The notes below the pieces were generated by a model that did no database searches, was not told where the DNA came from, and saw nothing but the letters and a program-made list of their open reading frames with translations. Shown here piece after piece: positions 705 through 58,477 of a stretch of 64,000 nt of DNA (position 1 is the first letter of the stretch; every line of letters starts with the position of its first letter). Position numbers and translations under genes: made by a program. The stretch covers positions 782,624-846,623 of the forward strand of contig CAVQQD010000003.1 of the NCBI GenBank assembly GCA_963714975.1. Reading direction: 5' to 3'. The DNA comes from an uncultured Gammaproteobacteria bacterium. Its GTDB lineage: Bacteria > Pseudomonadota > Gammaproteobacteria > JAURND01.

Positions 705-810
705 CCCATTCCATCCTGAGGATGGCCGGTCCGCTTGTCCTGAGGAGCGAAGCGTCTCGAAAGGACGGCTGCTTCCTTCGTGACGCTTCGCTCCTCAGGA
801 CGAACGGGGA
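705..810. repeat. Imperfect palindromic (hairpin-forming) element, family 1
   Basis: The 20-bp arms GTCCTGAGGAGCGAAGCGTC (737-756) and GACGCTTCGCTCCTCAGGAC (782-801) are exact reverse complements. The 28-nt core GACGCTTCGCTCCTCAGGACGAA(C/T)GGGG (782-809) recurs inside the NRPS gene at 21404-21431. The element is intergenic between convergent-oriented neighbours. Confidence 0.7.
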
Positions 811-817
811 AGAGGGG

Positions 818-2897: not shown

Positions 2898-2973
<76 letters not shown>

Positions 2974-6790: not shown

Positions 6791-6941
6791 ATCAGTATGC
6801 GCCAGAAACCCGTAGCTAAAATCTGCACCCGGGAGTTGCGCGCCACGCCAATCGCGCCCGCTAAAGTTGATCTGGCAGGCATTGAGTACCGTCGCGGCAT
6901 TAGCAGAGGCAGTCGCTAAGCTGGTCTCTTTCTTGCTGCGA

Positions 6942-7430: not shown

Positions 7431-8007
7431 AACTTTCGGCCTCGTTGAGCGCCTGCATCCGCTGGCTGCGACAGCCGATGATCAGCTTCACCCTGTCCTT
7501 GGTCTCACGCAAATGATTGGCATCATATAAATTGATAGCGGCTTGTCCTGGGATTTCATCATAACCGTCGGCAATCCATAGGGTATGATACTCGCTTTGT
7601 AGCTCCCGAATTTCATTGCGGGTGAAGCCGCCAATCTCGGGAAGACTACGATAATAATCCCACAACTGCTGGGGATTAACTTGAGCGGAAGATAAGGGAA
7701 TAAACAGCGGCATTAACGCTTGAGGTGGCGGATCCCCGGGACGATAAGCCTGCCAGGCGGGGTCTTGCCACAGAATTTGGAGCAGATGGCGATTAAAGGT
7801 GCTTTTGCCCGCACCGCCCACGCCTTGCAGCACCAATACCTGGGCAGGACCTTGTAAGAATTCTTTTTCTACCCAAGGATATAGGGGATCGCAGGGTTGT
7901 CCCATCCCGGCTTGCGACTGACCGTTAGGGGCGATATAGCAAGAGAGTTCTTGGTTGAGCTGGGGGTCGGTTAATACCATGTGGCGGCTACCCCGGTTGG
8001 CCGCCAT
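7246..8007 (-). CDS. NACHT-type P-loop NTPase domain ORF (STAND family)
   Basis: Walker A VLVLQGVGGAGKST is present. A NACHT-style Walker B hhhhDGhDE appears as TLWIADGYDEIP. Confidence 0.55.
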   Translation of the reverse strand: MAANRGSRHMVLTDPQLNQELSCYIAPNGQSQAGMGQPCDPLYPWVEKEFLQGPAQVLVLQGVGGAGKSTFNRHLLQILWQDPAWQAYRPGDPPPQALMPLFIPLSSAQVNPQQLWDYYRSLPEIGGFTRNEIRELQSEYHTLWIADGYDEIPGQAAINLYDANHLRETKDRVKLIIGCRSQRMQALNEAESFVPHTDQGAPDWSRYRMRLLSPFTSEQTGAVVYSSGSKSLAATQFPARPRDYSRQTSDAGS

Positions 8008-26300: not shown

Positions 26301-29300
26301 CCTGATATTGTGACGGGCATGACCGTGTCGGGACGCAATATTGACTTGCCTCAGATCCAAGAGCGGGTAGGATTATTTATTAATAGTATTCCCTTGCGAC
26401 AACAGTTTGTCCCTGAGATAACAGTGCTGGCTCACTTGCAACAATTGCAAAAGACTATTACGTGCTTAATTCCGCACAGCACCTTCCCTCTTGCCGCCAT
26501 TCAAGCCTGCTCTGCACTATCTACTGCAGAACATCCCTTGTTTGATAGTCTAGTCGTCTTTGAAAATTATCCCCAAGCAACCCAAGAGGAAATCGAATTT
26601 TGGGATCCAACTCATTATGGTTTGACTTTGCTTATTACTCAAGGTTCCTGTTTGAAGCTGAAATTAGGCTATGATTGCCAACGTATTAATATAGAACGAG
26701 TCCAAAATTTACTGGAACATTTACAACATCTTTTGACCGTAGTCTTAGACAATCCACAGCAACAGATTGCCCGCTTACCTTTATTGACTACAGCAGAATA
26801 TCAAAAGCTATTTGCTCCAACCCAAACTGTAGTAGTGCTGGAAAATGTGGTAAGTTGTTTTCAAAAACAAGTAGTTAGTTCTCCTCACCATCCCGCGCTA
26901 GTTTGGGAGGGTCAGGTCTTGAGTTATCAAGACTTAGAAAATCAATCCAATCAATTGGCGCATTATTTAGCGACATTTCCGCATCATGGTGAAATGCCGA
27001 TTGGAGTATGCTTACCCCGTTGTCCCGAATTAGTCATCAGTTTGCTCGCGATCTGGAAGATGGGGGGAGCTTATTTGCCTTTAAATCCTGACTATCCGAC
27101 GGCTCGATTGCAAAGTATAGTAGATAGCCATCAAGTGAATCTTTTAATTTCCAAGAACATGATTCAAAAACTTACCGTGAACCATCCGATATTGTTGGAT
27201 CAAGTTCAAGCGAGTATCTGTCAACAACCTACTTATTATCCTCAGCATAGGATTCAACTGACGGATTTGGCGGCCATTTTAACCACTTCAGGCACCACCG
27301 GTAATCCTAAAAGCATTGCCCAAGAACATAAAACACTGGCGAATCTTGTGCATTGGCAACATCATGCATTTGCTTCCTCAGCAAAAAGACGAGTGACGCA
27401 ATTAGCAGCAATGAATTTTGATGTTTCATTACAAGAAATAACTTATGCGCTTGCTCAGGGCGATACGCTATATATTGTGCCAGAAACTATCAAACAATCC
27501 CTGGCGGAATTACTACGCTTTTTAGCGATCAATAAAATTCAACAAGCATTTTTAACCACTGCTTTATTGGAAGTTTTTTGTGAAGCGGCCTTATTTTTTA
27601 AACCCAACTTAAACTATCTGACTGAGATTTATGTAGCAGGAGAGGCATTAAAAATCTCTGGCCCGATCAAACAATTTTTTTCGCAAAATCCTCATATAGA
27701 CTTGGTGAATGAATATGGACCGACGGAAACTCATGTAGTAGCGACTCATCGATTATCAGTAGATACCATCGATAATTGGCCTTATTTACCGCCCATTGGA
27801 CGCGCAATTGACAACATCCGCTTATATGTCTTAGATGCCCAGTTACAAGCCTTACCGATCGGTATTCCGGGTGAGCTGTATATAGGTGGCGTCAATTTAG
27901 CGCGTGGTTATCTCCACAATGACAAGCTCACCCAAGAAAAATTTGTCCCCAATCCCTTTGATCCTATTGGTACCTCACGCTTATATCGTACGGGTGATCA
28001 GGTTCAGTGGAATGCGGCAGGGGAATTACTTTATTTAGGCCGTTACGATGATCAAGTAAAAATTCGCGGTTTTCGTATTGATCCGCAAGAAATTGAAGAA
28101 GCCTTACTAACACATAGCACCATTCAACAATGTTTGGTGACTGTGATTTCAGAGGAAAAATCAGCGCAATTAGTGTGCTATTTTGTCCCTTCTGATAAAA
28201 ATGAAGATGCAGAAAGTTTACGCCACCCATTGCGAAAAATATTACCTGACCATTTAATTCCGACCTATTTTATCAGGTTACAGTCCTTTCCCTTAACACG
28301 CGTTGGCAAAATTGATCGGCAGGCACTACCCCGACCTGAGCAAAGGAATGCCATAAGTAATACCACTTTTCGTCACGCTTATGAGCAACAACTCGCCGAG
28401 TTGTGGTCCGAAATTCTCCTTTGCACTTGCATAGATCGAGAGGTATCTTTTTGGGCTTTGGGTGGTGACTCGATTAAAGCTTTGCGCTTATTATTCTTAA
28501 TTGAACATCATTTGCAAGTGACGTTATCGCTGCAGGATTTTTTTACAGCACCTTCCATTGCCCAGATGAGTGATCGCATTCGTTTGACACAAGCGGATAA
28601 GGTATTGCAAAATCAGTGGCAAACCCTAGATTTTAAAGGATGCCACTTACCTTCTCCCTTAGTGCCATTACAAACCACAGGAGAAAAAACACCGCTGTTT
28701 ATTATCCACCCGATTGGTGGCACAGTTTTTGCCTTTTTAGATTTGGTCCGTTATCTGGGAAATGAGCGACCTATTTATGGAATTCAAGACCCCAACGTAG
28801 CTGACAATAACCATATTTCTTTTTTTAAAAATTTAGAAGAATTAGCAGCCTATTATGTTTATGCATTGCGCAGTGTCCAGCCTCAGGGTCCTTATTTTTT
28901 GTCGGGTTGGTCCTTTGGTGCTACTGTTGCCTTTGAAATGGCGCGACAAATTCTCGCTAGTCATGAAAAAGTAGAATTTTTAGGCTTACTCGATGGTTGG
29001 GCGGCGTATCCCAGCGAATTGCAAAATGAAAAAACATTCAAACAACTCATTCAAAAACAATGTGATGACTTATACCAACAATTTCATCTCAATCAACTAA
29101 AAAATCCTGATTTCTGGGTGGAACTACAATGGCAACGCAGTGATCTGCTTTGGCGATATAAGTTAAGACCTGTAAACACAGCTATAACTTTATTTAAAGC
29201 GAAAGAAGGGATACCAGGATTTCATGAGTCGTATGAGAAAGATTATGGCTGGCATCAATTTACCACCAAGCCAGTAGAAGTGTATGAGGTTCCGGGGGAT

Positions 29301-29387
29301 CATGCTTCGATGTTTCAGGAACCTTATGTGCAATCTTTAGCTGGTGCAGTATCTGCTGCATTAAATGAGGGACATATGGTTCATTAG
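20367..29387 (+). CDS. Nonribosomal peptide synthetase, two modules with an N-terminal formyltransferase (F) domain: F - partial C - A1 - T1 - C - C(NHxxxDG) - A2 - T2 - TE
   Basis: The N-terminus is Fmt-like (..HDAPLPRYAGVHATSWAILNQE..). A-domain cores appear twice (YTSGTTGKPKGV / TSGTTGNPKSI, NAYGPTE / NEYGPTE, GELYVTGHGLAKGYLNR / GELYIGGVNLARGYLHND, YKTGDLARW / YRTGDQVQW). T domains are LGGDSILA and LGGDSIKA. C domains carry HHLIMDGVSW and NHMILDGWSF. The TE has GWSFGATVAFE. Confidence 0.85.
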   Translation: MAPNIFTCFIIGEDNLHLECAKIIQQQGQQIIGIISAYEAAELWALQQGIPHYASLAAAQEALNKTPFDYLFSIVNAQILPAAILNLPRQLAINFHDAPLPRYAGVHATSWAILNQEKTHGITWHVATETVDAGDILQQVMVPITEDETALSLNLKCYEAALQSFPELVKSLANHSYQRQPQDLRQRTYFGLHQKPAGDGWIDWNASAEDIERLFRATQFGSYPNRFTCPKFKLSFQPDEPSSQQGSWEDEFIITQLELLPEPSTVAPGTIVATTEEYWRVATATCDIAIRQICTLEGDAVILEGEGVLDQAHPSSGLRPPSPTRGEGVKLRAYEARAEISPLSFETLRSSGRMGGRGDLNSGGGDEAYWVSQWQSIEPAKIPFLNFNHLENKSSFLLPLWEKVAEGRMRGEPSEFTPHPPAYPEPVEGAPSPTRGEEVMPGMYERRYYHLQQWTLPTSLQKLLHQHYPTHDFNTLLLALWLVYFYRLGNQPNVGVLLQLPDQNASHPSDLDPGIHARTSLELPYFTVLQDGLHFGQVVSQLQDELQAMQQKGSYLRDIFYRYPILTEVKHAVFTAVVIGEINQLQKSRAALVLGISAKDYSLSWHVDQNCLTQEPYLKTILDQMPGHLETLLTAITTQPETPIADLVLLTPQEQQQILIDWNQTETDYPRDKTIPQLFEEQVQKHPNKIAVCFENQSLTYRELNQQANQLAHYLSQQGVVAETLVAICMERSIEMIIGILGILKAGGAYVPIDPEYPRARIKFIFEDCRAMFVLTQSRLAKKIHAITDGAVITVDKIKNIKIHNKESISLNFDSSQLAYVIYTSGTTGKPKGVLIKHQAVVNTVLAKLRKFAINHSDRILNFSTLSFDASVWEIFPCLFAGATLYLARKENLLPGSKLTHFLEKNKITIATLVPSILAITPPPSTSHLRIIISAGESCSKAVVKQWENVAIFVNAYGPTEFTICAAMAIVGKDANKITIGRPIANTKIFILDDKMQLLPVGITGELYVTGHGLAKGYLNRDALTKSKFIPWALEHGTKEVSQIVYKTGDLARWLPDGNLEYMGRVDEQIKILGCRAELGELEEIAVTYPNILQAAACLDTTAEKNQINLFFVNKSDRNAIDIAKFNRFLKKQVPRYTVPSKIIEVARFPRTVNGKIDKNLLLKKMFFIKQPVIEPPSIKETLLLEIFQKILRIDSLHLEDDFFLLGGDSILAMHLVSKINALGFHCSVRDVFEASTIKKLVIRLHKKNPIEPIALLSKDFSLTPIQRWFFAQSFRHPKQFVQICWLEFQKPINSELLVCCLREIIEWHEIFRLRFKKKEGIWQQYYADKVHESCTDFPVIDNSSLVIQDFANEWVMNVAQDFNFETGYLLKVALVRQQGKITHLLLAAHHLIMDGVSWQIFFDDLQSLYAGSEKEGNNWQKFANSTSYQQWVYALENYIVSSQFKAEQSHWQGVDPFTYIPIDHHQGTNTEKSAEYVTVTLTEEETQRLLRTLAKTHHLNTDEILIALLAKSLMRWCQTDCITLDIERHGREELTTEINLTGTLGWFTSLFPLRLSCNKNLSLLEIIQSVQQQLQTVPRHGISYGLQHYFSGEWKPKSSLHEGENFTSLHAGSRHPAGTTGRIAFNYWGQLDQAFAQNFFTLGELKLLSHPENIRPYLITIDAVIKNKQLQLSWAYSRNFHRHETIQDLAQNFVTDLRNLLTNTQLQKPKISYALTAVQQGLLFEQCRFPQAHYYQAQACWELKLSGHFDAKLLQAACRFLVQRHDVLRTRFVVSGSQEPTQFVEESMEVPCDIIDLQQAKDPEVQLTKFRLADQAALIHWQATSLLRVQIVLLPENRCYLILHFNHMILDGWSFSILVKEFHQYCQAQQQGLALNLPPTYPFADYVHWLQHQSWSASQAFWKNYLAKFNEPVNLKVLGLFDATAEKTELSRCEFVSTPLSSELGQKLQHFCQMQHISLNTFFQALWGILLHRYTQTPDIVTGMTVSGRNIDLPQIQERVGLFINSIPLRQQFVPEITVLAHLQQLQKTITCLIPHSTFPLAAIQACSALSTAEHPLFDSLVVFENYPQATQEEIEFWDPTHYGLTLLITQGSCLKLKLGYDCQRINIERVQNLLEHLQHLLTVVLDNPQQQIARLPLLTTAEYQKLFAPTQTVVVLENVVSCFQKQVVSSPHHPALVWEGQVLSYQDLENQSNQLAHYLATFPHHGEMPIGVCLPRCPELVISLLAIWKMGGAYLPLNPDYPTARLQSIVDSHQVNLLISKNMIQKLTVNHPILLDQVQASICQQPTYYPQHRIQLTDLAAILTTSGTTGNPKSIAQEHKTLANLVHWQHHAFASSAKRRVTQLAAMNFDVSLQEITYALAQGDTLYIVPETIKQSLAELLRFLAINKIQQAFLTTALLEVFCEAALFFKPNLNYLTEIYVAGEALKISGPIKQFFSQNPHIDLVNEYGPTETHVVATHRLSVDTIDNWPYLPPIGRAIDNIRLYVLDAQLQALPIGIPGELYIGGVNLARGYLHNDKLTQEKFVPNPFDPIGTSRLYRTGDQVQWNAAGELLYLGRYDDQVKIRGFRIDPQEIEEALLTHSTIQQCLVTVISEEKSAQLVCYFVPSDKNEDAESLRHPLRKILPDHLIPTYFIRLQSFPLTRVGKIDRQALPRPEQRNAISNTTFRHAYEQQLAELWSEILLCTCIDREVSFWALGGDSIKALRLLFLIEHHLQVTLSLQDFFTAPSIAQMSDRIRLTQADKVLQNQWQTLDFKGCHLPSPLVPLQTTGEKTPLFIIHPIGGTVFAFLDLVRYLGNERPIYGIQDPNVADNNHISFFKNLEELAAYYVYALRSVQPQGPYFLSGWSFGATVAFEMARQILASHEKVEFLGLLDGWAAYPSELQNEKTFKQLIQKQCDDLYQQFHLNQLKNPDFWVELQWQRSDLLWRYKLRPVNTAITLFKAKEGIPGFHESYEKDYGWHQFTTKPVEVYEVPGDHASMFQEPYVQSLAGAVSAALNEGHMVH
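21296..21700. repeat. Cluster of palindromic repeat elements inserted in-frame within the NRPS coding sequence (F-domain/C-domain linker)
   Basis: Three copies of a ~48-bp unit CACCCCTCATCCGGCCTTCGGCCACCTTCTCCCACAAGGGGAGAAGG lie at 21303-21350 and 21614-21686 (direct) and 21551-21598 (inverted). The family-1 core GACGCTTCGCTCCTCAGGACGAATGGGG is at 21404-21431. GGGGGGCAGGGGGGATTT is at 21427-21444. The ORF stays open and translates this stretch as low-complexity peptide (..PSPTRGEGV.. appears twice). Confidence 0.6.
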
Positions 29388-29436
29388 GGTCAAAAATTTA
29401 CTAATACGATGTTTTAACAAAATTTGGAGATTACTT

Positions 29437-31530
29437 ATGCATCAAAAAGATCGACAATTAGCGATTTCTTCGATTTTCGAATATAGCCGTCAGCCTATGA
29501 TTATTTTAGCCTCAGATGGAAAAATAATTGATGCAAATAAGGCTGTTATCGATATGTATGAATTGCGAAACAACACTTTGCAGGGTGCAGATTATTTTGC
29601 TCTTTTAGAAAAATTGGAATTAACTCCTCCAGTAACAGATGAACAGCTAAAAATGCTGCTTCCTGGTAATCCTGCTATAAAGCAAATTGCAAAAATTGGT
29701 GTAAGTAATAAGAATTACGTAATCGAATGGTCTATTCATTCCCTGATTCTAGATTTGGAAAAAATTTATGTCATTTTAGGTACTGATATTACTGCCGAGG
29801 AAGAAGTAAAAGTACTTGAAGAAAGAGGTAGAGAACAAATAAAAATAATGGCTAAATTGAATCAAGAAGTCCTCGGTGTTTCTGCAAAAGAACACGGAGT
29901 GTTGGAGAAATACGCTCATTCCATTCGTCACCATTTAGAAAGCATTATTGCCTGTATGCCAGGAAATATATATTGGATGGATAAAGATTGTAATTATTTG
30001 GGTTGCAATAATAATGTTGCAAGGATTTTGCACCTGAATAATCCTACAGAAATTATTGGGTTAAGTTATGACGATATGGCTAGGCTTAAAGGAGTAGACC
30101 CGGAGGAGTATAAAAAATTCAAAGAAGATGATTTGGAAGTAATACGAACAGGCGAGCCAAAACTAAATACTGAGGAACCCCCCCTTACAGATGAAAATGG
30201 AAATGTAGTATATTTTTTAACTAGTCGTGTTCCATTAACCGATGAACAAAAGGAAGTAACAGGTGTAGTGGGTGTTTCTATTGATATTACGGAACGCAAA
30301 ATCCTAGAACAAAAACTTTCCAAAGCCTTGGAGGCCGCCGAAGCTTCCGATCGTGCTAAAACGGATTTTATCCAAAACATGAGTCACGATGTCAAAACGC
30401 CGCTGGCGGGTATTATTTCCATGGCGCACAGGATCGGCACGCAACTCGAGGAGCCCGATGCTCTCGAAGATAATTATGAAAATGTGCAGATGATTAAAAA
30501 TTCGGGTAGGCAATTGATAGAATTTTTTATGAATTGTTTAGAGATGGGGCGGATTGAAACGGGGGAGGTGGGACTTAGCAATGAAAATTTCAATCCCCAA
30601 ACCATAATGGATCAGCTTGTCGAGATGTTGACCCCTTCCATGAAACAAAAAGGCTTAGGATTTTATTCCACTTATGATCCCGCTATTCCTGAAATGGTGT
30701 ATGCCAGCGCGCCGGGATTTTATCGGATAATTTTAAATTTACTAGGCAATGCGATTAAATTTACTGAGGAAGGCTCGATAAGCATGGACATTCTCTTACA
30801 GAAAACTCGCGATGAAGACACTGGCAAAGACAAAGAGGAACTTTGTTTAAAAATCCGCGATACTGGCATGGGCATTCCCCAAGAAAAAATCGCTAGCATT
30901 TTCGACCGCTTTACGCGCTTAACGCCTTCCTATGAGGGTAAATTTGAGGGCCATGGGATTGGGCTGTATATTGTGCATAAATTTGTCACTTTGATGGGAG
31001 GAAAAATTGATGTGGACAGCGAAGTGGGTAAGGGCAGTTGCTTCACCATCACGTTTCCTTTTTTACCCGCCAAGGCATTCCTGAAACCGAGAGCAGTCAA
31101 GCCTAAGTTTACCAAGCTAGCTCCCCTTGGGGATGCTATCAGCGAGGATGAAGAAACTGGCCCGCGTATTTTGTTGGTCGAGGATAATCGGATGGCTCAA
31201 AAAGGCATGGAATCGATTCTCACGCACTTAGGTTATACGCTCGATATTGTGAATACAGGTAAAAAAGCCCTAGATATTTTTGAATTGGATAAATATGTGC
31301 TGATTATTACCGATATTGGATTAGATGATATGAGTGGGACGACAGTAGCAGCGCATATTCGTACTGCAGAAAAGGGTCGAAAAAATCCAGTGCCGATTGT
31401 GGCTCTGACGGCCCATAATGTTGAAAAAGTGCAAGCGGAATGTGCAGCAGTGGGCATTAATGGGGTATTGGAAAAGCCCCTGACTGAGGAAGCGGCTCAG
31501 GAGGTGTTGGATTGTTTTGTCCAGAAGTAA
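29437..31530 (+). CDS. Hybrid sensor histidine kinase (two PAS domains, HisKA, HATPase, C-terminal receiver)
   Basis: The ORF track opens this frame at 29365, overlapping the NRPS stop. The ATG at 29437 has an SD GGAGA 7 nt upstream, so it is the preferred start. The second PAS (IIACMPGNIYWMDKDCNYLGCNNNVARIL) is paralogous to the PAS of the 17254 HK. The H-box is HDVKTPLAGI. The receiver block is ILLVEDN...DIGLDDMSG...K. Confidence 0.85.
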   Translation: MHQKDRQLAISSIFEYSRQPMIILASDGKIIDANKAVIDMYELRNNTLQGADYFALLEKLELTPPVTDEQLKMLLPGNPAIKQIAKIGVSNKNYVIEWSIHSLILDLEKIYVILGTDITAEEEVKVLEERGREQIKIMAKLNQEVLGVSAKEHGVLEKYAHSIRHHLESIIACMPGNIYWMDKDCNYLGCNNNVARILHLNNPTEIIGLSYDDMARLKGVDPEEYKKFKEDDLEVIRTGEPKLNTEEPPLTDENGNVVYFLTSRVPLTDEQKEVTGVVGVSIDITERKILEQKLSKALEAAEASDRAKTDFIQNMSHDVKTPLAGIISMAHRIGTQLEEPDALEDNYENVQMIKNSGRQLIEFFMNCLEMGRIETGEVGLSNENFNPQTIMDQLVEMLTPSMKQKGLGFYSTYDPAIPEMVYASAPGFYRIILNLLGNAIKFTEEGSISMDILLQKTRDEDTGKDKEELCLKIRDTGMGIPQEKIASIFDRFTRLTPSYEGKFEGHGIGLYIVHKFVTLMGGKIDVDSEVGKGSCFTITFPFLPAKAFLKPRAVKPKFTKLAPLGDAISEDEETGPRILLVEDNRMAQKGMESILTHLGYTLDIVNTGKKALDIFELDKYVLIITDIGLDDMSGTTVAAHIRTAEKGRKNPVPIVALTAHNVEKVQAECAAVGINGVLEKPLTEEAAQEVLDCFVQK

Positions 31531-31543
31531 CCGCTTTCTCTCT

Positions 31544-31583
31544 AAATCCCCCCTTACCCCCCTTTTTCAAAGGGGGGGATTTA
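31544..31583. repeat. Family-2 palindromic element (AAATCCCCCC...GGGGGGGATTT) 14 nt downstream of the HK stop
   Basis: AAATCCCCCCTTACCCCCCTTTTTCAAAGGGGGGGATTT. The same architecture recurs at 57189-57268 and 60648-60795. Confidence 0.55.
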
Positions 31584-31861: not shown

Positions 31862-32938
31862 TTAATCAGCCAAATTGCTTATCCATCCCCTTTGAGTCAA
31901 GATCTTAGCTGCTAAGGTGATCTGGCGCTCGGTAAATTGTTTTTTGCGTTTATTCCAGGCATAGGTTTGTTTCACTACATCGTCCAAGGTATGTGCAGAT
32001 TCTTGTTGCACTATCCAATGTACCGTAGATAATAACTCTAATCCAAATGATGATTCGAATCCTTCAACCAATTTTACAACCTGATCAAAACGTGTCCGAG
32101 TTTCGGCATGATTTTCAAGAAAAGCGCTAGCTGCTTCAACTGCACCCTGCCGCAACCTGAGCTGCTTGTTTGGATTATCACCACCGTCGACGTATCCTGA
32201 GATCAAATGTCCTTCAATGTCATTTAGTACATGACGCAAATTTTCAGCGTAAGGGCCATAGAGTCCTTTTACATAACGAAGTCGCAGTGGTTCACCAGCT
32301 ACCTGCATAAAATACATTAATTTTTGAACCTCTAGCAGCGTAACAAAAGGATCAAGTAAAGCGTTTAGATAGCGATGCATCAGTTGAACCAAAGTAGCTC
32401 GTCCCGCTGTCATTTTAGGAGCTTTTCGACTATAGGTTGTTTTTTCTCTGACAAACTCTGGTTCATAGATGATAATTTGGACATTTTTTAAGGGTTTTAA
32501 TGCCGCTATGATGAGTGGCTTAATTTGTGCCCATTTTAGTCCACCCAATCCGCTACCAAGGGGAGGGATTGCAATCGAGTGAATATTGTATTTACTGATG
32601 ACTGTGGCTAACGACTTAAGACCAGCTTCAATGTCTTCAATTCGGCTCTTATCTTTCCAATGTCGCTTAGTGGGGAAGTTGATGATATAGCGGGGAGTTC
32701 CTGGGTAAGTGGTTTCATACACAAACATGTGGCCTGGCTGCACTTCTGCGTGCTTACAGGCAGTGACATAAGCTTTGAAATTATCTGGAAATGTATTTTT
32801 GAATTGCAAAGCAATGCCACGACCCATGATGCCGACACAATTCACTGTGTTCACAATGGCTTCTGCATTTTCTTGCAAAATATCGCCTGTTTTGTACTCA
32901 ATCACTCTCATCCACCTCGTTAATATTAGTAGTACCAC
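31862..32938 (-). CDS. darG: DarG-like antitoxin: N-terminal macro domain (ADP-ribose hydrolase) plus C-terminal DarT-interaction domain
   Basis: The macrodomain motifs AIVNTVNCVGIMGRGIALQF and AIPPLGSGLGG are present. At 358 aa it matches DarG size, and it lies immediately downstream of and overlapping the darT-like ORF. Confidence 0.65.
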   Translation of the reverse strand: MVLLILTRWMRVIEYKTGDILQENAEAIVNTVNCVGIMGRGIALQFKNTFPDNFKAYVTACKHAEVQPGHMFVYETTYPGTPRYIINFPTKRHWKDKSRIEDIEAGLKSLATVISKYNIHSIAIPPLGSGLGGLKWAQIKPLIIAALKPLKNVQIIIYEPEFVREKTTYSRKAPKMTAGRATLVQLMHRYLNALLDPFVTLLEVQKLMYFMQVAGEPLRLRYVKGLYGPYAENLRHVLNDIEGHLISGYVDGGDNPNKQLRLRQGAVEAASAFLENHAETRTRFDQVVKLVEGFESSFGLELLSTVHWIVQQESAHTLDDVVKQTYAWNKRKKQFTERQITLAAKILTQRGWISNLAD

Positions 32939-33597
32939 TCAGGTATTATTTCAATGGATTGTGGATACTTAGTGGTAGCCTTGCTCAACTCCAGCGCCAC
33001 TTGTTGATATGTCGCACTTGATTTTACACCAATGCGATCGACCAGACACCATGGAAAAGAATGTTCCAGCAAAAATTCTGCTTGCTTACCTTCTTTTAAT
33101 ATTGGATTGCTATCACCACCCCACTGCTTAGCCAAAACAGCCTCCCAGTTAATTTCATTTAACCGAGTAAGGTCACAACGATCCTCAAAGTAATAAGAAC
33201 CTGCATTTGACAAAGTAAAGACCCAACGCTTCTTATTTGTTGCTGCCCAATTTATCGTACGAAGCAGGTCAGTTTCAAGGTGTATAATTGGTTCTTATCC
33301 GCCCTCGTAAATTAAATCCGGGTTCCCTTGGTGAATCACGTAAAGCATAATTGAGCGTGGACAGAAATAAAAAGGTACACATTGGCCTATATATAAGTCA
33401 GGATAACTCTTTAACTTAAGTTCCTTCAGACGACGCTGTTTGATTTTATTCATACCGATACTAGTGCCTAAAGATGAATATTTTGTAATCTGAGCGTCGC
33501 ACCAAAGATGATTGTCGGCGATGATAGAAGGCAAACGATCTACATGTAAAATATGATAAATTTTGGGATGTTCTGGAATAGCCATAGTTTCTCCCAT
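32926..33597 (-). pseudogene. darT: DarT-like (DUF4433) DNA ADP-ribosyltransferase toxin gene, disrupted; the two ORF-track pieces are 33295..33597 and 32926..33213
   Basis: The N-terminal piece (PEHPKIYHILHVDRLPSII...VPFYFCPRSIMLYVIHQGN) and the C-terminal piece (DLTRLNEINWEAV...KQAEFLLEHSFPWCLVDRIGV) both match conserved DarT blocks, including the catalytic-Glu AEFL motif. They sit in different frames, separated by ~80 nt. Confidence 0.6.
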
Positions 33598-33654: not shown

Positions 33655-33905
33655 ATTGTTTCATTATTAGTTGGCTGCTCCTTCAGCTGTTTTATTCCCG
33701 CTGCCGTCAGCATAGCATTTGTCGCTTTTTCAACAGAAGCTCGCACAGGGTCTAGATCCAATCGTGCATAAATAGCCGTTGTTTGGGGCGACTTATGATT
33801 TAAGGATTTTCCAATGATAGTGAGAAGCGCCTGTACGAGCTTGCCAGCTTCCTAGGGTACGTCTTAGATCATGTATTCGTAGATCAGCAATACCAGCATC
33901 TTCAA
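33655..33905 (-). pseudogene. Tyrosine integrase C-terminal fragment (frameshifted remnant)
   Basis: Minus-strand translation gives ...IADLRIHDLRRTLGSWQARTGAS.. and, after a frameshift, ..IGKSLNHKSPQTTAIYARLDLDPVRASVEKA... These match the integrase box II and the C-terminal tyrosine region. There is no N-terminal part. Confidence 0.45.
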
Positions 33906-33949
33906 TTTTGCTAAGCAAGAAGGTGAGATTTCTGCCAATACAGCTGCCT

Positions 33950-34406
33950 ACTGCAAAGCAAGGTCACGCTTACCAGAAGAAGCTTTATCAGGATTAACAA
34001 GAGAGTCAGCAGAACAATTGGAAGGACGAACTCCATTAGAATGGTGATGGAGAGAACGGCATGTAAAATTAATTGATGGTTCATGTATATCAATGCCAGA
34101 TACTCCTGAAAATCAAGCCACCTATCCACAACCTGATACTCAAACTAAAGGAGTCGTTGGTTTGTGGAAATTAATTTGTTAGCCATCAAAAAAACCATGA
34201 AAATGGATGTTTTACGTGGGAAATCGCCTAAAATGGTACACAAGGAGGTTTGGGCGCATTTACTGGTTTATAACTTGGTTAGAAAAATAATGGCTCAAGC
34301 AGCAATCAAGCATAATAAAAATCCCCGCGAATTGAGCTTCAAATTAGCATTGCAAATTATTTTTGCATTTCGTCAGGCAAAAATTTTTTCTGAAAAAACG
34401 AAATAA
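33950..34406 (+). pseudogene. IS4-family transposase remnants (N-terminal and C-terminal fragments; the DDE core is deleted)
   Basis: Plus-strand translation of ~34030-34180 gives ...VKLIDGSCISMPDTPENQATYPQP.TQ.KGVVGL..., an IS4 N-terminal motif. The 80-aa ORF 34164..34406 ends ...EVWAHLLVYNLVRKIM..., an IS4 C-terminal motif. A stop lies between them. Confidence 0.5.
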
Positions 34407-34481: not shown

Positions 34482-34802
34482 TTAAGCGTCGGCCAAAATC
34501 TTTCCCTCGGCTGCAAAAACCAAGGAAATCCTACTATAAAAAAGTGAGCGCTTAAAATGACTATTTCTTAAGTTAGTGCCATTGGGTTTATTATCATCTA
34601 TCAAGCATTGTTTCCATTTATGCTTATTCAGCAAGGGTTGACAATAATCCACATGGGATCTAAATTCATCTTGAGAAATGATATCGAATCCATCTTCTCC
34701 GTTTCTGATCTGGCCTTTAGAGTCATGTGTACTAATCAAACAATCATCATAATCCAAACTAAGGGCTAAAATTTTTTTTGGCATACTATTGTATCTCTTC
34801 AT
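34482..34802 (-). CDS. Hypothetical small protein
   Basis: A 106-aa ORF in an AT-rich mobile-element-remnant region. No recognisable domain. Confidence 0.25.
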   Translation of the reverse strand: MKRYNSMPKKILALSLDYDDCLISTHDSKGQIRNGEDGFDIISQDEFRSHVDYCQPLLNKHKWKQCLIDDNKPNGTNLRNSHFKRSLFYSRISLVFAAEGKILADA

Positions 34803-35121
34803 CCTACGTTGTCATTTCATTGTTAAAAAATCATTTGAAGACCCCATGGACCCTATACAAGATTTTTTGTGCAAAATGAACAAAAATATGGCGAGAATAT
34901 TACACTATCCAGCAAATGTGTCAATTTAATGGGCGAAATATTGAAAGGGTGAGTAATGAAGTATCATTAGACGACATGAAAATCTTAGTGGAATGCGCGA
35001 CTTTTGCGCGATTCGGTGCTGCTCCACTCTGCTTTATTAGGCATTTGCAGTGGGGTGCCCGCCTAATACCTGCCAATAAGGTGTGCCTTCTACTGTTACA
35101 ATAATAATTTACCCCGTGGGT

Positions 35122-35148
35122 AAAAAGTTCCCCCTTAAGGGGGAACTT
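35122..35148 (-). terminator. Rho-independent terminator for the repeat-peptide gene
   Basis: Stem GTTCCCCC / GGGGGAAC (with an extra A-T pair) and a TTAA loop. On the minus strand the hairpin is followed by TTTTTA (plus-strand A-run at 35122-35126). It lies ~40 nt downstream of the stop at 35187. Confidence 0.5.
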
Positions 35149-35186
35149 TGCACACCACTTCTTCATTTTTTCCCTAAAAGACCCTA

Positions 35187-35447
35187 TTAAGGATAATAGG
35201 GATGATACGGATGTACGTACGGGTGGTAGTATGGATGATATGGGTAATAAGGATGATAGGGATGCACGTACGGATGGTAGTATGGATGATACGGATAATA
35301 GGGGTGATAGGGATGCACGTACGGATGATAGTACGGGTAATAAGAAACGGAAACACCAAGCTGGGCATAGCTCCCTAATGACGTAACCGCCAATAGACCA
35401 GCAGCCAAGGCCAAGGCAATCCGCTTTTTTAAAGAACCAAGTTTCAT
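35187..35447 (-). CDS. Secreted His/Tyr/Pro-rich tandem-repeat peptide
   Basis: Signal peptide MKLGSLKKRIALALAAGLLAVTSLGSYAQ, then YPYYHPYVHPYHPY repeated three times (42-nt DNA repeats), ending ..HPYYP. Followed by a terminator. Confidence 0.55.
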   Translation of the reverse strand: MKLGSLKKRIALALAAGLLAVTSLGSYAQLGVSVSYYPYYHPYVHPYHPYYPYHPYYHPYVHPYHPYYPYHPYYHPYVHPYHPYYP

Positions 35448-35681
35448 AGCAACCTCCTCTAAATCTTACTTGTGCCTTAAGTATAGTATTTTTTCGGGGG
35501 TTAATAGGGAATATTTGTATTTTTCTTGCACAATCTGTGCTTATTGGTAGGGAAGTTAGTCTATTCAGCCTACCGCTTCTGTAGTCTGGTTGAGATCTTT
35601 GAATAGTGTGCCAAATTCACAAATGAAAGCCAGATTAACAGCAGGCCCTAGTTAGTGTCAGTGGCAGGAAAGCAAAATTTT

Positions 35682-38600
35682 TTAGAAGGAGGCATAGGAA
35701 GTAGTGCTGCCTGTTGCCGTTGCGTTATCTCGTTTATTTTCTGCTACCGTTTTCAACACCCGATCAATAGTATTTGAGAGACGAGGGTGCAGGAAGTAAT
35801 TAGGTATTTTGGGATGCCGCAAGGCATTGCCCTCTGTTATTGCTTTGGGCAACCATGCGAAAAAATTTCTTGTTTCTTCAGCCGATACGTTATTGTCACG
35901 AAGTGTTTGCTCGAAATTTCCTGTTTTTTTGCTATTGGCTAACGCAGACAGAAAATGATTTGCTAACTGATACGTCAACGGCGCATTTTTCTCTAATAAT
36001 ATTCTTTCGCCTTTCATGCTGTGCCACAGCGTAAATATATCTGCTTCATTTATGGGTTGTTCTGAAGTGCAATGATCCATTAAATTTTTTAATGAGCCAT
36101 TGCGCTGCAATAACCATGCTAGTGAAAATGGGTCAGGTTCTGTTTGCGAGATATTAACCACTGTATTAATAAATTCATTGTATATTACATGCAGGTCGAG
36201 TAAATTTAGGTCCTGCAGTAAACTACGCCCATGGATTAAGTTATGCTGTAATGCGTCTAAGTGATCAAGTGATCCTTGCGAATAATAACGTTTTAATACC
36301 TGGGCAGTAAAATACATGCATCCTTGCTCAGCAAACATGCGCAGCGTGGGCGTGATTTTCTTAGTACTGATTGAAGTAATATCTTCTTCATGTTTTATTG
36401 CTGTAATAAAACGCCGGATTGCGGTTAAATTTTCACTAAATTGTGGAAATTTATCTTTGGAATCTTTTGGAAAAAATGTCGTCGAGCTGGTAGAGCTACT
36501 CCTTCTCCTGATACTAGAGGGAGTTGTTTTAGCATCCATGGGGATGGATGGTGAATAAATTCCTCGTAATTCAGATTCTATAGAAGCTCTTCTTTTCCTG
36601 TTACTATCAGGAGTGCTTCTAGATGCTATCGGGGGAGGGGTAACTGAATAAAGCTTTAAGGAATCGGATTCTGTAGACTTTCTTCTAGAAGTAGCTGTAG
36701 TTCTTCTTTGTTTTATTTCTTTTCCATCGGTGGACTGCAATGAAAAAGATTTGGTTCGCGGTCTTTCGGTGTGCGAACCTGTTAACTTTTTTTTCGAATT
36801 TTCATACTTCGGACTTAATGCTTTAAGTTTATCAGATATTGATTTTAACCGTGACTCCACGAAAGAGAAGTTTTTAAAGCTAATTTCATCTATGGCTTGT
36901 TGCTCATTAATCGCTTGTTTTTTTAATGCATCTGCATTTTCAAGAATTTCAGTTGTATCTCGTACAAATGTGCTATAATCATCGTAATAACGAGAAGTGC
37001 TATACTCGCTTGGCATAAATTCCATTCTACTATCTGAAATTTTTTTTGCTAGAGTAGCATACTCTTGCTCGGTATCTTCTATTATTTTTATTAAATCATT
37101 GATTTTTTCCTGCGGCACGGTTTTTTCCATAGTGTCGATTTTTTCTTTCTGTGAGTCATTCAATGTGGAAGAGGGTGGTGACAAAGGTGGTTGCACTGAA
37201 GTTTGATCTGTATCATCGGATGGAAGAGGTAGTTTCTGTGTTTTGGATTTTCGTTTTGGTGTCGGTTTTTGTTCACTGGTTCTTATCTCTTGCTGAGGTT
37301 TATGTTGTTTAAGGTTGGGCTTATTTTTAGATTTATTTAAAAAACAAAAGTATATAAAAGCGCCTATCCCTGCCACTACTGTCAATAGGGAAACGAAAAT
37401 AAAGGGGTTTTCATTTTTTGAAGTCTGGTGCTCGCTAGTTTCACTACTGTTAGGCTCAATCTGTGGATTTTCATAACACAGAAAGCTTGAATTTCTATGT
37501 GTTTCGATATAATTTTCTGTCAAAGGAGTTCTATAGAGATTCACAGATTGGTCGCGTTGTGTTTCAGCATAATTCTTTAGTAATTCAATCATAGGTAATG
37601 CAATCGTAGGAGGACGTCCAGAGAATTGAAGTGTACCAAGCGCTGTTTGGTCTTTCTTATTTTTTTTGTTAATAATATATGGGTTTTTTCTTATTATTTT
37701 TTTAACAAAATCAACGTTATGAAATAACACTGCCACATGCAAAATAGTATCTCCGTTGTTGTTTTTTACGTTAAGATCGATCCTGTCATCAGCTAATATT
37801 AATTTAGTGATAGCCATCCTATTAACAGTTTTTACAGCATAAAATAACGCAGTTTCGCCAACATTATCTTGCAAATTAATGTCCGTTCGAGTATTTCTTA
37901 GAATTGATTTTACTATGTTTTTTTGTCCTTTTAAGACAGCAACCATTAGTGCCGTCCGACTCTTTTCATTTTTTAGATTAGGGTTGGCACCTTTTCTCAG
38001 TATTTTTTTTATAATATCGTGGGAAGCAGAATATATAGCTATATGTAAAAGCGTATTTCCATCCCTATCTTTCTGATCTAGGTTAATTCTTTTATCATCT
38101 AACAACAAGTTAACAATATCTAAATCTAGATCTAGAGAGTTTAATTTCAAACTTACAAATATAGCAGAGTTATTTTGGTAGCCAAGGATATTAATGTCGG
38201 TATGAGGCTTATTCAGGAGCAGTTCTATTATGCCCCTATGTCTTTTTATAGTAGCATACATGAGCGCCGTAAAACCTGCGGTATCTTGTAGATTAGGATC
38301 CGCGCTTTTTTCCAATAATTTATCCACAATGTTTAAGTAACCATAATTTGCTGCCATCATTAATGCTGTCTCTCCTTTATTATTTTGTTTATTAATATCA
38401 GTGACTTGTTGTTCTAGTAGGTCAAAAGCGATTTTTGGTTTATGATCTTCAAGTGCCTGCATTAAGGGTGTATTTCCCTTGTTATCTTCTGTTTTCGTTG
38501 ATTGTTGTTTCGCATCTACTGTAGAAAAGAAGTAAGTATGTGTAGCAATAGCCAATGGTCTAATGCGCTCAGAGGGGTAAGTAGACAACTTGATGAGTTT

Positions 38601-39041
38601 GTTTTTTGTACGATAAATTAAGTGATCTAATGCGGCGTTAGTTTTACGCAGTAAGGTTGATTGCCTCACCCAGGTAATACCCAATAGGGGAAGAGAGATA
38701 GCTATATTTTTAGGGAAGGGAGACGTAGGGCCATTAATATAATGCTTGATCCCATGTAAGCAATTGATACATAACTCGGTATCCCAGTAATCCGGTGTAC
38801 GTGCAATATAATCTTGTAACGCCGTTATTAGATGTTTTACTGCGACATCATCGTTTTTTTCTATCTGGCCGTTACCTGCTATCGTATAATATTTGGAGAG
38901 TTTAGCAGCGACAAATTCAACTAAAGGTTGCACATCTTCGTCGGTTAAATCTTCATCTTCCTGAAAAATAAATTCTTGTAGGTTGAATTTATCTTGACTG
39001 CTTAGTATAAACTTAAAAGTTGCGGGTTCACTATCTTGCAT
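35682..39041 (-). CDS. Large ankyrin-repeat protein (about 9 ANK repeats) with one TM segment, a long Ser/Thr/Lys/Arg-rich region and a C-terminal domain of unknown function; effector-like
   Basis: ANK consensus blocks are present (GNTPLMQALE..., GETALMMAANYGYLNIVDKLLEKSADPNLQD..., GNTLLHIAIYSASHDIIKKILRKGANPNL...). The TM segment is FIFVSLLTVVAGIGAFIYFCF. The region is very AT-rich. Confidence 0.8.
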   Translation of the reverse strand: MQDSEPATFKFILSSQDKFNLQEFIFQEDEDLTDEDVQPLVEFVAAKLSKYYTIAGNGQIEKNDDVAVKHLITALQDYIARTPDYWDTELCINCLHGIKHYINGPTSPFPKNIAISLPLLGITWVRQSTLLRKTNAALDHLIYRTKNKLIKLSTYPSERIRPLAIATHTYFFSTVDAKQQSTKTEDNKGNTPLMQALEDHKPKIAFDLLEQQVTDINKQNNKGETALMMAANYGYLNIVDKLLEKSADPNLQDTAGFTALMYATIKRHRGIIELLLNKPHTDINILGYQNNSAIFVSLKLNSLDLDLDIVNLLLDDKRINLDQKDRDGNTLLHIAIYSASHDIIKKILRKGANPNLKNEKSRTALMVAVLKGQKNIVKSILRNTRTDINLQDNVGETALFYAVKTVNRMAITKLILADDRIDLNVKNNNGDTILHVAVLFHNVDFVKKIIRKNPYIINKKNKKDQTALGTLQFSGRPPTIALPMIELLKNYAETQRDQSVNLYRTPLTENYIETHRNSSFLCYENPQIEPNSSETSEHQTSKNENPFIFVSLLTVVAGIGAFIYFCFLNKSKNKPNLKQHKPQQEIRTSEQKPTPKRKSKTQKLPLPSDDTDQTSVQPPLSPPSSTLNDSQKEKIDTMEKTVPQEKINDLIKIIEDTEQEYATLAKKISDSRMEFMPSEYSTSRYYDDYSTFVRDTTEILENADALKKQAINEQQAIDEISFKNFSFVESRLKSISDKLKALSPKYENSKKKLTGSHTERPRTKSFSLQSTDGKEIKQRRTTATSRRKSTESDSLKLYSVTPPPIASRSTPDSNRKRRASIESELRGIYSPSIPMDAKTTPSSIRRRSSSTSSTTFFPKDSKDKFPQFSENLTAIRRFITAIKHEEDITSISTKKITPTLRMFAEQGCMYFTAQVLKRYYSQGSLDHLDALQHNLIHGRSLLQDLNLLDLHVIYNEFINTVVNISQTEPDPFSLAWLLQRNGSLKNLMDHCTSEQPINEADIFTLWHSMKGERILLEKNAPLTYQLANHFLSALANSKKTGNFEQTLRDNNVSAEETRNFFAWLPKAITEGNALRHPKIPNYFLHPRLSNTIDRVLKTVAENKRDNATATGSTTSYASF

Positions 39042-58375: not shown

Positions 58376-58477
58376 GGCCCATGTCTGAAACTCACCAGAT
58401 GTGTCATCCCGCGAAGCGTTGGCGACAGGCAAGGCATAGTATAGAATGGCAATTATTTTAAAAGAAGAAAGAAACTT

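What the first reader, a model, noticed from the sequence alone, without database searches (positions are those of the whole stretch)
35187..35447. Secreted peptide made of His/Tyr/Pro tandem repeats (YPYYHPYVHPYHPY x3)
An 86-aa ORF has a clear signal peptide followed only by three perfect 14-aa repeats rich in His, Tyr and Pro. A strong rho-independent terminator follows it. This composition suggests metal (Ni/Zn/Cu) binding or an adhesive or cross-linkable (Tyr-rich) periplasmic or extracellular peptide. The repeat array is prone to copy-number variation.
Basis: seen in the sequence. Interest (0 to 1): 0.55.

Follow-up and report, generated by a model that had tools for sequence, protein, structure and literature searches.

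The report
Unannotated secreted His-Tyr-Pro repeat peptide
A small gene missing from the protein set called on its own genome, in a Legionella/Coxiella-like bacterium, encodes an exported 58-residue peptide made almost only of tyrosine, proline and histidine; its sequence has clearly been kept by selection, but it has no detectable relatives and its function is untested.

Summary
The ORF is real and lies at the stated coordinates (35187..35447, minus strand, 86 aa). It has a textbook Sec-type signal peptide, a GGAGG ribosome-binding site 5 nt before the ATG, and an 11-bp GC-rich terminator hairpin 37 nt after the stop.

The repeat is not 3 x 14 aa. It is 3 x 17 aa (51-nt DNA period): Y[Y/H]PYYHPYVHPYHPYYP, preceded by a 7-aa linker.

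The three DNA copies differ at 11 of 51 columns. Ten of these are third-codon positions of this frame, and all ten leave the amino acid unchanged. This indicates purifying selection on this frame and rules out the three other open frames.

The mature 58-mer (Y22 P15 H11 V5) has no fixed charges, goes from about +1 at pH 7.5 to about +11 at pH 5, and is predicted to be disordered.

No homologue was found in 5.8 billion proteins, 1.84 billion representatives, Pfam, NCBIfam or the PDB. The ORF is also missing from the protein set of its own genome.

Unrelated small secreted proteins with YHP-rich tails are common in metagenomes, and none found here carries a functional name. My best guess is a pH-switched metal- or heme-coordinating envelope peptide. 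That function is inference only.

The parts
35187..35447 (-). Complete ORF including the TAA stop (35187..35189). It encodes an 86-aa precursor.
   Evidence: This ATG is the first start codon after the upstream in-frame stop; only 6 codons lie upstream.
35453..35460 (-). Shine-Dalgarno sequence AGAGGAGG. The GGAGG ends 5 nt before the ATG.
   Evidence: Read directly.
35364..35447 (-). Signal peptide, residues 1-28. Predicted signal peptidase I cleavage is SYA|QL.
   Evidence: Charge and hydropathy layout. AlphaFold helix 3-35 with block-mean pLDDT 79-91. There is no Cys, so no lipobox, and no twin-arginine motif. Cleavage is predicted by rule, not by SignalP.
35343..35363 (-). Non-repeat linker QLGVSVS, residues 29-35. 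This is the N-terminus of the mature peptide.
35292..35342 (-). Repeat unit 1, YYPYYHPYVHPYHPYYP, residues 36-52.
35241..35291 (-). Repeat unit 2, YHPYYHPYVHPYHPYYP, residues 53-69.
35190..35240 (-). Repeat unit 3, YHPYYHPYVHPYHPYYP, residues 70-86.
35120..35149 (-). Intrinsic-terminator-like hairpin with an 11-bp stem, a 4-nt loop and a U-run. It starts 37 nt after the stop codon.
   Evidence: terminator scan. (96-nt fold, -29 kcal/mol, z = -2.5).
35182..35201 (-). Weaker hairpin CCCTATTA-TCCT-TAATAGGG spanning the stop codon, followed by TCTTTT.
35448..35681 (-). 234-nt spacer between the stop of the upstream ankyrin gene (35682..39041, same strand) and the ATG. No consensus sigma-70 promoter and no terminator was found on this strand.
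   Evidence: Either read-through from the ankyrin gene or a non-consensus promoter is possible. This is unresolved.

Best explanation
This is a genuine protein-coding gene that is absent from the protein set called on its own genome. It makes a small Sec-exported peptide.

**Shown by sequence**
- The ATG has a GGAGG 5 nt upstream.
- A canonical 28-residue signal peptide precedes a predicted SYA|Q cleavage site.
- The mature part is a 7-aa linker plus three 17-aa units, Y[Y/H]PYYHPYVHPYHPYYP.
- A terminator hairpin follows.
- The amino-acid sequence of the units has been held almost constant while their synonymous sites diverged.

**Inferred**
- The 58-residue mature peptide (22 Tyr, 15 Pro, 11 His, 5 Val) has no Asp, Glu, Lys, Arg, Cys, Met, Trp or Phe.
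- It is probably released into the periplasm, and possibly travels further.
- With Pro every 3-4 residues, it probably stays extended and disordered.
- It probably behaves as a histidine pH switch: almost uncharged and aromatic at neutral pH, and about +10 to +11 below pH 5.5.

**Most likely role**
- Its 11 imidazoles sit at i+3/i+4/i+6 spacing and are flanked by phenols.
- I propose they reversibly coordinate divalent metals (Cu, Zn, Ni) or heme/Fe(III) in the cell envelope, with protonation releasing the ligand.
- This would buffer the envelope of a vacuole-dwelling Legionellales-type bacterium.

I put the probability that the gene is real and exported at about 0.8. I put the metal- or heme-coordination role at about 0.3.
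For: **Coding frame**
- 11 variable columns separate the three 51-nt units. Ten are at codon position 3 (P = 1.3e-4).
- The HPY frame has 19 synonymous against 2 non-synonymous pairwise codon changes.
- Transversions occur only at four-fold Pro and Val sites. Only C/T transitions occur at two-fold Tyr and His sites.
- The one other frame with mostly silent changes is full of stop codons (sequence).

**Translation and transcription signals**
- GGAGG lies 5 nt from the ATG.
- A terminator hairpin follows the ORF.

**Export**
- The n-, h- and c-region layout is canonical.
- The N-terminal helix is confidently modelled.

**Disorder**
- In the repeat region, every 10-residue block from residue 41 averages pLDDT 46-47, and no secondary structure is assigned.

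**pH switch**
- Computed charge is +0.7 at pH 7.5 and +10.7 at pH 5.

**Recurring architecture**
- By my count from the translations, about 37 of 120 metagenome loci carrying YHPYYHPY are small ORFs with a signal peptide and a Y/H/P-rich tail.
- They fall into several unrelated families.
- One family matches NCBIfam NF047412.

**Host context**
- The window carries ankyrin, WD40, Sel1 and eukaryote-like kinase genes.
- The closest CydA relatives are Coxiellaceae and Legionellales MAGs.
Against: - There is no expression evidence of any kind.
- The gene caller behind the protein collection skipped this ORF, although it called 80-aa and 95-aa neighbours on the same contig.
- No consensus promoter lies in the 234-nt upstream spacer.
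- No homologue was found anywhere, so conservation across species could not be tested.
- The downstream flank holds decayed genes: a split DarT and a transposase fragment.
- Nothing in the neighbourhood points to metal or heme handling.
- The metal- or heme-binding role rests on composition only.
- SignalP could not be run.
Confidence: 0.5

Rival explanations
1. The gene and its export are the same, but the role is material rather than chelation. The Tyr/His/Pro peptide would self-associate or phase-separate when histidines deprotonate. Alternatively it would be oxidatively cross-linked through tyrosines to form an envelope, surface or adhesive layer.
For: - The mature peptide is 38% Tyr and 19% His, has no fixed charges, and shows the computed charge switch.
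- It is predicted to be disordered.
- In squid-beak His-rich peptides, His deprotonation, then His-Tyr hydrogen bonding, then Tyr stacking drive pH-dependent phase separation (PMC6884462).
Against: - No oxidase, peroxidase or tyrosinase gene lies nearby.
- There is no Gly, which the squid repeats rely on.
- A single small gene with no strong promoter is an unlikely source of a bulk material.
- Nothing was tested experimentally.
Confidence: 0.2
2. The ORF is a non-functional leftover or an accident of a tandem DNA repeat sitting in a decaying island. It is not currently expressed as a protein.
For: - Four of six frames are open over the array.
- The ORF was not called in its own genome.
- No homologues exist.
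- No consensus promoter was found.
- The neighbours include a split DarT, a transposase fragment and uncalled ORFs.
Against: - The substitution pattern between copies is what purifying selection on exactly this frame predicts.
- The non-repetitive 5' part encodes a complete signal peptide, in frame, behind a GGAGG.
- A terminator is correctly placed.
- A recent loss of function cannot be excluded, but there is no stop or frameshift.
Confidence: 0.13
3. It is a precursor of a modified or bioactive peptide, either RiPP- or bacteriocin-like or directed at the host. For example, the PxxP-rich, Tyr-rich peptide could be delivered to the amoebal or host cell.
For: - The size is small and the unit is repeated.
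- There are many PxxP and Tyr motifs.
- The organism carries many eukaryote-like genes.
- An ankyrin gene lies immediately upstream on the same strand.
Against: - Among the ORFs scanned against Pfam/NCBIfam in this neighbourhood, none was a radical-SAM, P450, ATP-grasp, cyclase, peptidase-transporter or immunity gene. The nearest ATP-grasp gene is 15 kb away, and the NRPS is a separate system.
- The leader is an ordinary Sec signal, not a RiPP leader.
- There are no canonical PPxY motifs and no Arg/Lys-flanked SH3 motifs.
Confidence: 0.05
4. One of the overlapping ORFs in another frame is the expressed product: 35174..35368 (-), 35202..35378 (+) or 35231..35386 (+).
For: All three are open for 51-64 codons.
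Against: - In those frames the copy-to-copy differences are 0-2 synonymous against 18-20 non-synonymous.
- None has a well-spaced ribosome-binding site or a recognisable N-terminal feature.
- None is in the protein collection.
Confidence: 0.02

Closest known systems
Small signal-peptide proteins with Tyr/His/Pro(/Arg/Gly) low-complexity tails. Examples: NCBIfam NF047412 'GCG_CRPN prefix-to-repeats', Pfam PXPV (PF12778) proteins with YHPYY tails, and the unnamed 'SAFTLSSPS...(YYHP)n' and lipoprotein '...GGC AVYPAYPGPCCY...YYHPYYHPYY' families seen in soil and peat metagenomes.
   Same: - The architecture is the same: a Sec or lipoprotein signal, a short prefix, then a Y/H/P-rich repeat tail.
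- Total length is 50-130 aa.
- Function is unknown.
   Different: - There is no sequence homology (E >= 0.56; 0 hits).
- The GCG...CRPN and AFTLSSPS prefixes are absent.
- There is no Cys, Arg or Gly in the repeats.
- The repeat here is a composite 17-aa unit whose DNA copies have diverged, not a simple 4-aa (12-nt) YYHP array.
CopQ/CzcJ/MmmQ small periplasmic peptides of Cupriavidus and Ralstonia.
   Same: - They are small, have signal peptides and contain 3-4 internal repeats.
- They are restricted to a narrow taxon.
- They are tied to metal stress (PMC2864759).
   Different: - Their repeat motif is RDXXTDG, which is acidic and polar, not His/Tyr/Pro.
- They sit in or near metal-resistance loci and are metal-induced. 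Neither is shown here.
Histidine-rich metal-binding proteins and peptides: Hpn/Hpn-2 of Helicobacter, SilE/PcoE, histatin-5, and the His-rich tails of ZraP and ZinT.
   Same: They have a high His density and plausible multi-imidazole coordination (own knowledge; PMC4671568 listed).
   Different: - There is no homology.
- Hpn is cytoplasmic and rich in His, Gln and Cys.
- SilE/PcoE use Met and His.
- Histatins are rich in Lys and Arg.
- None is made of xPY or xHPY units.
Eukaryotic His/Tyr/Pro-rich disordered material proteins: squid-beak HBPs and amelogenin.
   Same: - They are disordered and secreted.
- His acts as a pH switch and Tyr as a sticker.
- They self-assemble as pH rises above about 6.5 (PMC6884462; amelogenin from own knowledge).
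   Different: - They are eukaryotic and much longer.
- HBP repeats are Gly-rich (GHGxY).
- The resemblance is compositional and physico-chemical only.

Membership tests
Sec (signal peptidase I) secretory precursor | A positively charged n-region, a hydrophobic h-region of 10-15 residues, and a c-region with small neutral residues at -3 and -1. | tested here: met
   The n-region is MKLGSLKKR (+4). The h-region is IALALAAGLLAV (Kyte-Doolittle up to 2.57). The c-region is TSLGSYA|Q. AlphaFold models a helix over residues 3-35. This was tested by rule only; SignalP is not available.
Bacterial lipoprotein (signal peptidase II) | A lipobox, L-[AS]-[GA]-C, with an invariant Cys. | tested here: not met
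   The protein has no Cys anywhere.
Tat substrate | A twin-arginine motif, S/T-R-R-x-F-L-K. | tested here: not met
   Only K-K-R is present, with no RR.
NCBIfam NF047412 GCG_CRPN prefix-to-repeats | A GCG...CRPN prefix domain between the signal peptide and the repeats. | tested here: not met
   There is no hit at E <= 10 and no Cys. The metagenome analogue from L040 does hit, at 6.3e-10.
Pfam PXPV repeat (PF12778) | A match to the PXPV repeat profile. | tested here: not met
   No Pfam hit at E <= 10 for the mature peptide or at E <= 1 for the full-length protein. The analogue from L118 hits at 6.1e-07.
Any Pfam, NCBIfam or PDB family | Significant profile or sequence similarity. | tested here: not met
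   Searches gave no matches.
RiPP or bacteriocin precursor | An adjacent maturase, a dedicated transporter, or an immunity gene. | tested here: not met
   - The neighbours are an ankyrin protein, cydAB, DarG with a split DarT, a transposase fragment, and unassigned small ORFs.
- The nearest ATP-grasp gene is about 15 kb away.
Metal- or heme-binding His-rich peptide (a functional class, not a homology family) | Demonstrated saturable binding of a metal ion or heme. | not testable with these tools
   Only the composition and the His spacing (3, 4 and 6) are known.
Protein-coding gene under purifying selection | An excess of synonymous over non-synonymous differences in the proposed frame. | tested here: met
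   - Between the paralogous repeat units there are 19 synonymous and 2 non-synonymous pairwise codon differences.
- 10 of 11 variable columns are at codon position 3.
- Comparison between species was not possible.

The most novel reading that the evidence does not exclude
Bacteria from several lineages have independently evolved tiny exported peptides built only of Tyr, His and Pro. These would act as histidine-gated pH switches: polycationic and soluble in acid, then condensing or coordinating metal or heme near neutrality. The window's peptide would be the version used by a vacuole-dwelling Legionellales bacterium to sense or survive phagosome acidification and metal intoxication. This would be a previously unrecognised functional class of bacterial envelope peptides. 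It would have been missed because gene callers skip them and, lacking Lys and Arg, they yield no tryptic peptides.
Probability: 0.15. Interest if true: 0.7.

Novelty: new variant of a known kind. Interest (0 to 1): 0.4.

Why it matters
If the peptide is expressed, it is a clean example of a selected but unannotated orphan micro-protein in an intracellular-lifestyle bacterium.

Two technical blind spots would hide it. Gene callers reject its codon statistics. The mature peptide has no Lys or Arg, so standard trypsin-based proteomics cannot see it.

It also links to a widespread set of secreted Tyr/His/Pro-tailed peptides in environmental bacteria for which I found no functional annotation or published study. 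A 58-mer can be made by chemical synthesis, so pH-dependent assembly and metal or heme binding can be tested directly.

If it turns out to be inert, the case is still a useful calibration. It shows how repeat-internal synonymous divergence can validate an orphan ORF when no homologues exist.

Tried and rejected
**Homology searches**
- A word-indexed phmmer search of 5.8 billion proteins gave only 6 hits, at E = 0.56-7.4, all compositional analogues.
- A full HMMER scan of 1.84 billion representatives gave 0 hits.
- Pfam, NCBIfam and PDB gave 0 hits.

**DNA and locus searches**
- The peptide-pattern scan of GTDB genomes matched 268 stretches, but none was confirmed by tblastn.
- The degenerate DNA pattern for HPYVHPYHPY had 0 hits in metagenomes and 0 in viral contigs.
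- I fetched loci around cydA in 21 relatives. The closest have only 69% CydA identity and are Coxiellaceae or Legionellales MAGs.
- None of these loci has an HYP-rich ORF. They are too distant to be informative.

**Sister genome**
- The source genome and a sister genome exist in the protein database: the ankyrin protein matches at 100% and 87% (P0007 and P0008).
- Their DNA could not be retrieved.
- So copy number in other strains and orthologue conservation could not be checked.

**Context of the analogues**
- P0002, P0003, L036 and L098 have no consistent neighbours.
- No functional hint came from them.

**Literature**
- The repeat motifs appear in no paper.
- The NCBIfam name appears in no paper.

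**Structure and promoter**
- AlphaFold without an alignment gave only the signal helix. The rest is low-confidence coil, so no fold search was run.
- The promoter scan and inspection by eye found no acceptable -35/-10 pair upstream.

**Ideas rejected**
- Lipoprotein, Tat substrate, ATCUN site (the mature N-terminus is QLG), canonical PPxY/WW ligands and RiPP precursor were each considered and rejected.

Full report
**1. What is in the sequence**

On the minus strand, 35187..35447 is an 86-codon ORF: MKLGSLKKRIALALAAGLLAVTSLGSYAQLGVSVS followed by Tyr/His/Pro repeats.

Tandem Repeats Finder gives a 51-nt period with 2.8 copies, 89% matches and score 230. The repeat finder gives three in-register 51-nt copies (family D11).

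Laid out in codons, the repeat is three 17-aa units:
- YYPYYHPYVHPYHPYYP
- YHPYYHPYVHPYHPYYP
- YHPYYHPYVHPYHPYYP

One position differs (Y, H, H), and a 7-aa non-repeat linker (QLGVSVS) precedes the array. Each unit is itself built from xPY triplets and xHPY tetrads (3+4+4+3+3). TRF picks this up as a weak 9-nt sub-period.

**2. Is it a gene or an accident of repeat DNA?**

Four of the six frames are open across the array, so an ORF alone means little. The decisive evidence is internal.

- The three DNA units differ at 11 of 51 columns.
- Ten of these are at codon position 3 of the HPY frame (binomial P = 1.3e-4).
- The eleventh is the first base of the single Y/H codon.
- In this frame, pairwise codon differences are 19 synonymous against 2 non-synonymous.
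- In the two alternate sense-strand frames they are 2 against 18.
- In two of the antisense frames they are 1 against 20 and 0 against 20.
- The remaining antisense frame (16 against 4) shares its third positions with the HPY frame, but it is closed by many stop codons (GGA TAA TAG GGA TGA ..., read).
- At two-fold sites (Tyr TAY, His CAY) only C/T transitions occur. Transversions occur only at four-fold Pro and Val sites.

This is the signature of purifying selection on exactly this amino-acid sequence. It has lasted long enough for 6 or 7 of the 17 codons to differ synonymously between any two copies.

Other supporting features:
- The ATG is the first start after an in-frame stop 6 codons upstream.
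- A GGAGG lies 5 nt before the ATG.
- An 11-bp GC-rich hairpin with a U-run starts 37 nt after the stop.

Features that count against it:
- No consensus sigma-70 promoter and no terminator lies in the 234-nt spacer after the upstream ankyrin gene on the same strand. Transcription may be read-through or may use a non-consensus promoter.
- The ORF is not in the 15-billion-protein collection, although CydA, TrpS, an 80-aa transposase fragment and a 95-aa DarT fragment from the same 866-kb contig are.
- The gene caller therefore skipped it, and it is effectively unannotated.

**3. The product**

Residues 1-28 have the layout of a Sec signal peptide:
- four positive charges
- a 12-residue hydrophobic core (Kyte-Doolittle up to 2.6)
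- S-Y-A at positions -3 to -1

AlphaFold models residues 3-35 as a helix, with block-mean pLDDT of 79, 91 and 81 over the first 30 residues. There is no Cys, so it is not a lipoprotein. There is no RR, so it is not a Tat substrate.

The predicted mature peptide has 58 residues: Y22, P15, H11, V5, S2, Q, L, G. It has no acidic residues and no Lys, Arg, Cys, Met, Trp or Phe.

- Pro recurs every 3-4 residues.
- His spacing is 3, 4 or 6.
- In the repeat region every 10-residue block from residue 41 averages pLDDT 46-47, and no secondary structure is assigned. This fits an extended, disordered chain.
- Computed net charge is +0.7 at pH 7.5, +5.5 at pH 6.5 and +10.7 at pH 5.

**4. Relatives**

None were found.

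| Search | Result |
|---|---|
| Word-indexed phmmer, 5.8 billion proteins | best E = 0.56 |
| Full HMMER, 1.84 billion representatives | 0 hits |
| Pfam, NCBIfam, PDB | 0 hits |
| Peptide patterns in GTDB genomes | 268 stretches matched, none confirmed |
| Degenerate DNA for HPYVHPYHPY, metagenome and viral contigs | 0 hits |

The weak hits and a looser DNA pattern for YHPYYHPY (more than 120 metagenome loci) do reveal something. By my count from the translations, about 37 of the 120 loci are small ORFs with a signal peptide followed by a Y/H/P-rich tail. They fall into several unrelated families:
- a '...SAFTLSSPS[LV]E...(YYHP)n' family from soil and peat
- a lipoprotein family '...LLGLGGC AVYPAYPGPCCY...YYHPYYHPYYRY'
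- NCBIfam NF047412 'GCG_CRPN prefix-to-repeats' (E = 6.3e-10)
- PXPV-repeat proteins with YHPYY tails

The architecture is therefore recurrent and apparently convergent. None of the families found here carries a functional name. The analogue contexts I examined share no informative neighbours. No paper mentions the motifs.

**5. Genomic setting**

The window looks like a Legionellales/Coxiellaceae-type chromosome.
- It carries ankyrin, WD40, Sel1 and three kinase-domain proteins, a 3006-aa NRPS, cydAB, trpS, msbA and lpxK.
- The closest CydA relatives, at 69% identity or less, are Coxiellaceae and Legionellales MAGs.
- None of those loci has an HYP-rich ORF, but they are too distant to be informative.
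- A sister genome with an 87%-identical ankyrin orthologue exists (P0008). Its DNA could not be fetched.

The flank downstream of the ORF is decayed:
- DarG is intact but DarT is split into two ORFs.
- An 80-aa remnant of a DDE transposase is present.
- Several small ORFs there were not called.

**6. How it most likely works**

Shown: the coding frame is under purifying selection, and a ribosome-binding site, signal-peptide anatomy and a terminator are present.

Inferred:
- The precursor is exported through Sec and cleaved after Ala28.
- The result is a disordered, proline-kinked peptide with 11 His and 22 Tyr.
- Periplasmic pH follows external pH (own knowledge), and relatives of this organism live in acidifying vacuoles.
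- The peptide would therefore flip between an almost uncharged, aromatic state and a roughly +11 polycation.

I commit to reversible, pH-gated coordination of divalent metals or heme/Fe(III) by the His/Tyr array in the envelope as the most likely role, at about 0.3.

The rivals are:
- pH-triggered self-assembly or Tyr cross-linked material, by analogy with squid-beak peptides, where His deprotonation, His-Tyr hydrogen bonds and Tyr stacking drive condensation (PMC6884462): about 0.2
- a non-functional leftover: about 0.13
- a bioactive or modified peptide: about 0.05
- another reading frame: about 0.02

**7. Comparison and novelty**

The ORF meets the tested criteria for a Sec precursor. It fails the tests for lipoprotein, Tat substrate, NF047412, PXPV and RiPP-precursor status.

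It resembles in kind the genus-restricted, signal-peptide-bearing repeat peptides CopQ and CzcJ of Cupriavidus, which have an RDXXTDG motif and are metal-induced (PMC2864759). It also resembles the metagenomic YHP-tail families. It is homologous to none of them.

I rate it a new variant of a known but uncharacterised kind. It is moderately interesting. The gene is convincingly real and unannotated, but its function is open and no comparative data could be obtained.

Noticed in passing
window 31862..33597 (-): A DarTG toxin-antitoxin locus. DarG is intact (358 aa; NF048014, E = 5.8e-138). DarT is split into two ORFs, 33295..33597 (profile positions 1-79) and 32926..33213 (profile positions 108-201). 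The toxin gene therefore looks disrupted while the antitoxin is kept.
   Followed up: partly
window 34164..34406 (+): An 80-aa ORF clusters at 90% identity or more with a 260-aa DDE_Tnp_1 transposase (P0128) from the sister genome. It is therefore a transposase remnant. Just upstream, 33793..33918 (-) reads like a tyrosine-recombinase C-terminal fragment (IHDLRRT...), but Pfam did not confirm this.
   Followed up: partly
window 35187..35447 and 34482..34802: The HPY ORF and the 106-aa ORF downstream of it are both absent from the 15-billion-protein collection. Smaller neighbours from the same 866-kb contig are present. This local stretch is therefore under-annotated.
   Followed up: yes
window 20367..31530 (+): A 3006-aa NRPS begins with a formyltransferase domain and also has 2 adenylation, 2 condensation, 2 carrier and one thioesterase domain. 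It probably makes a formylated dipeptide-type product. A 721-aa hybrid histidine kinase follows it and overlaps it slightly.
   Followed up: no
window 774..822, 21322..21444, 21652..21701, 31537..31581, 57181..57225, 60750..60794: Short GC-rich palindromic repeat elements occur in several places, for example CACCTTCTCCCACAAGGGGAGAAGG and CCCCCCTTTTTCAAAGGGGGG. Three copies lie inside the 5' part of the NRPS ORF. They could be a small dispersed palindromic element family.
   Followed up: no
window 11705..16605 (+): Two adjacent eukaryote-like protein kinase genes (605 and 892 aa) share long diverged repeats (families D1, D4 and D6-D10, 69-97% identical). The second gene also has an internal duplication of about 840 nt.
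   Followed up: no
window 58419..60644 (+): Tandem duplicate zinc-type alcohol dehydrogenase genes (329 and 322 aa) are 95-97% identical at the DNA level over the repeat segments detected (228 and 300 nt). This suggests a recent duplication.
   Followed up: no
window 4778..9736 (-): A block with 52-55% GC sits in a roughly 40% GC window. It encodes a 670-aa WD40 beta-propeller protein, a weak NACHT-like ORF and a 582-aa ORF with no family match. It lies next to tRNA-Asn (2898..2973) and an integrase (10538..11407). It is probably horizontally acquired.
   Followed up: no
loci L028, L031, L036, L051, L060, L070, L073, L078, L086, L098, L101, L114, L143: A coherent metagenomic family with no Pfam or NCBIfam match. 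It has a signal peptide, then a conserved 'SAFTLSSPS[LV]E..SQIE' prefix, then long (YYHP)n / YYHR arrays, for a total of 90-135 aa. The two members scanned matched neither Pfam nor NCBIfam.
   Followed up: partly
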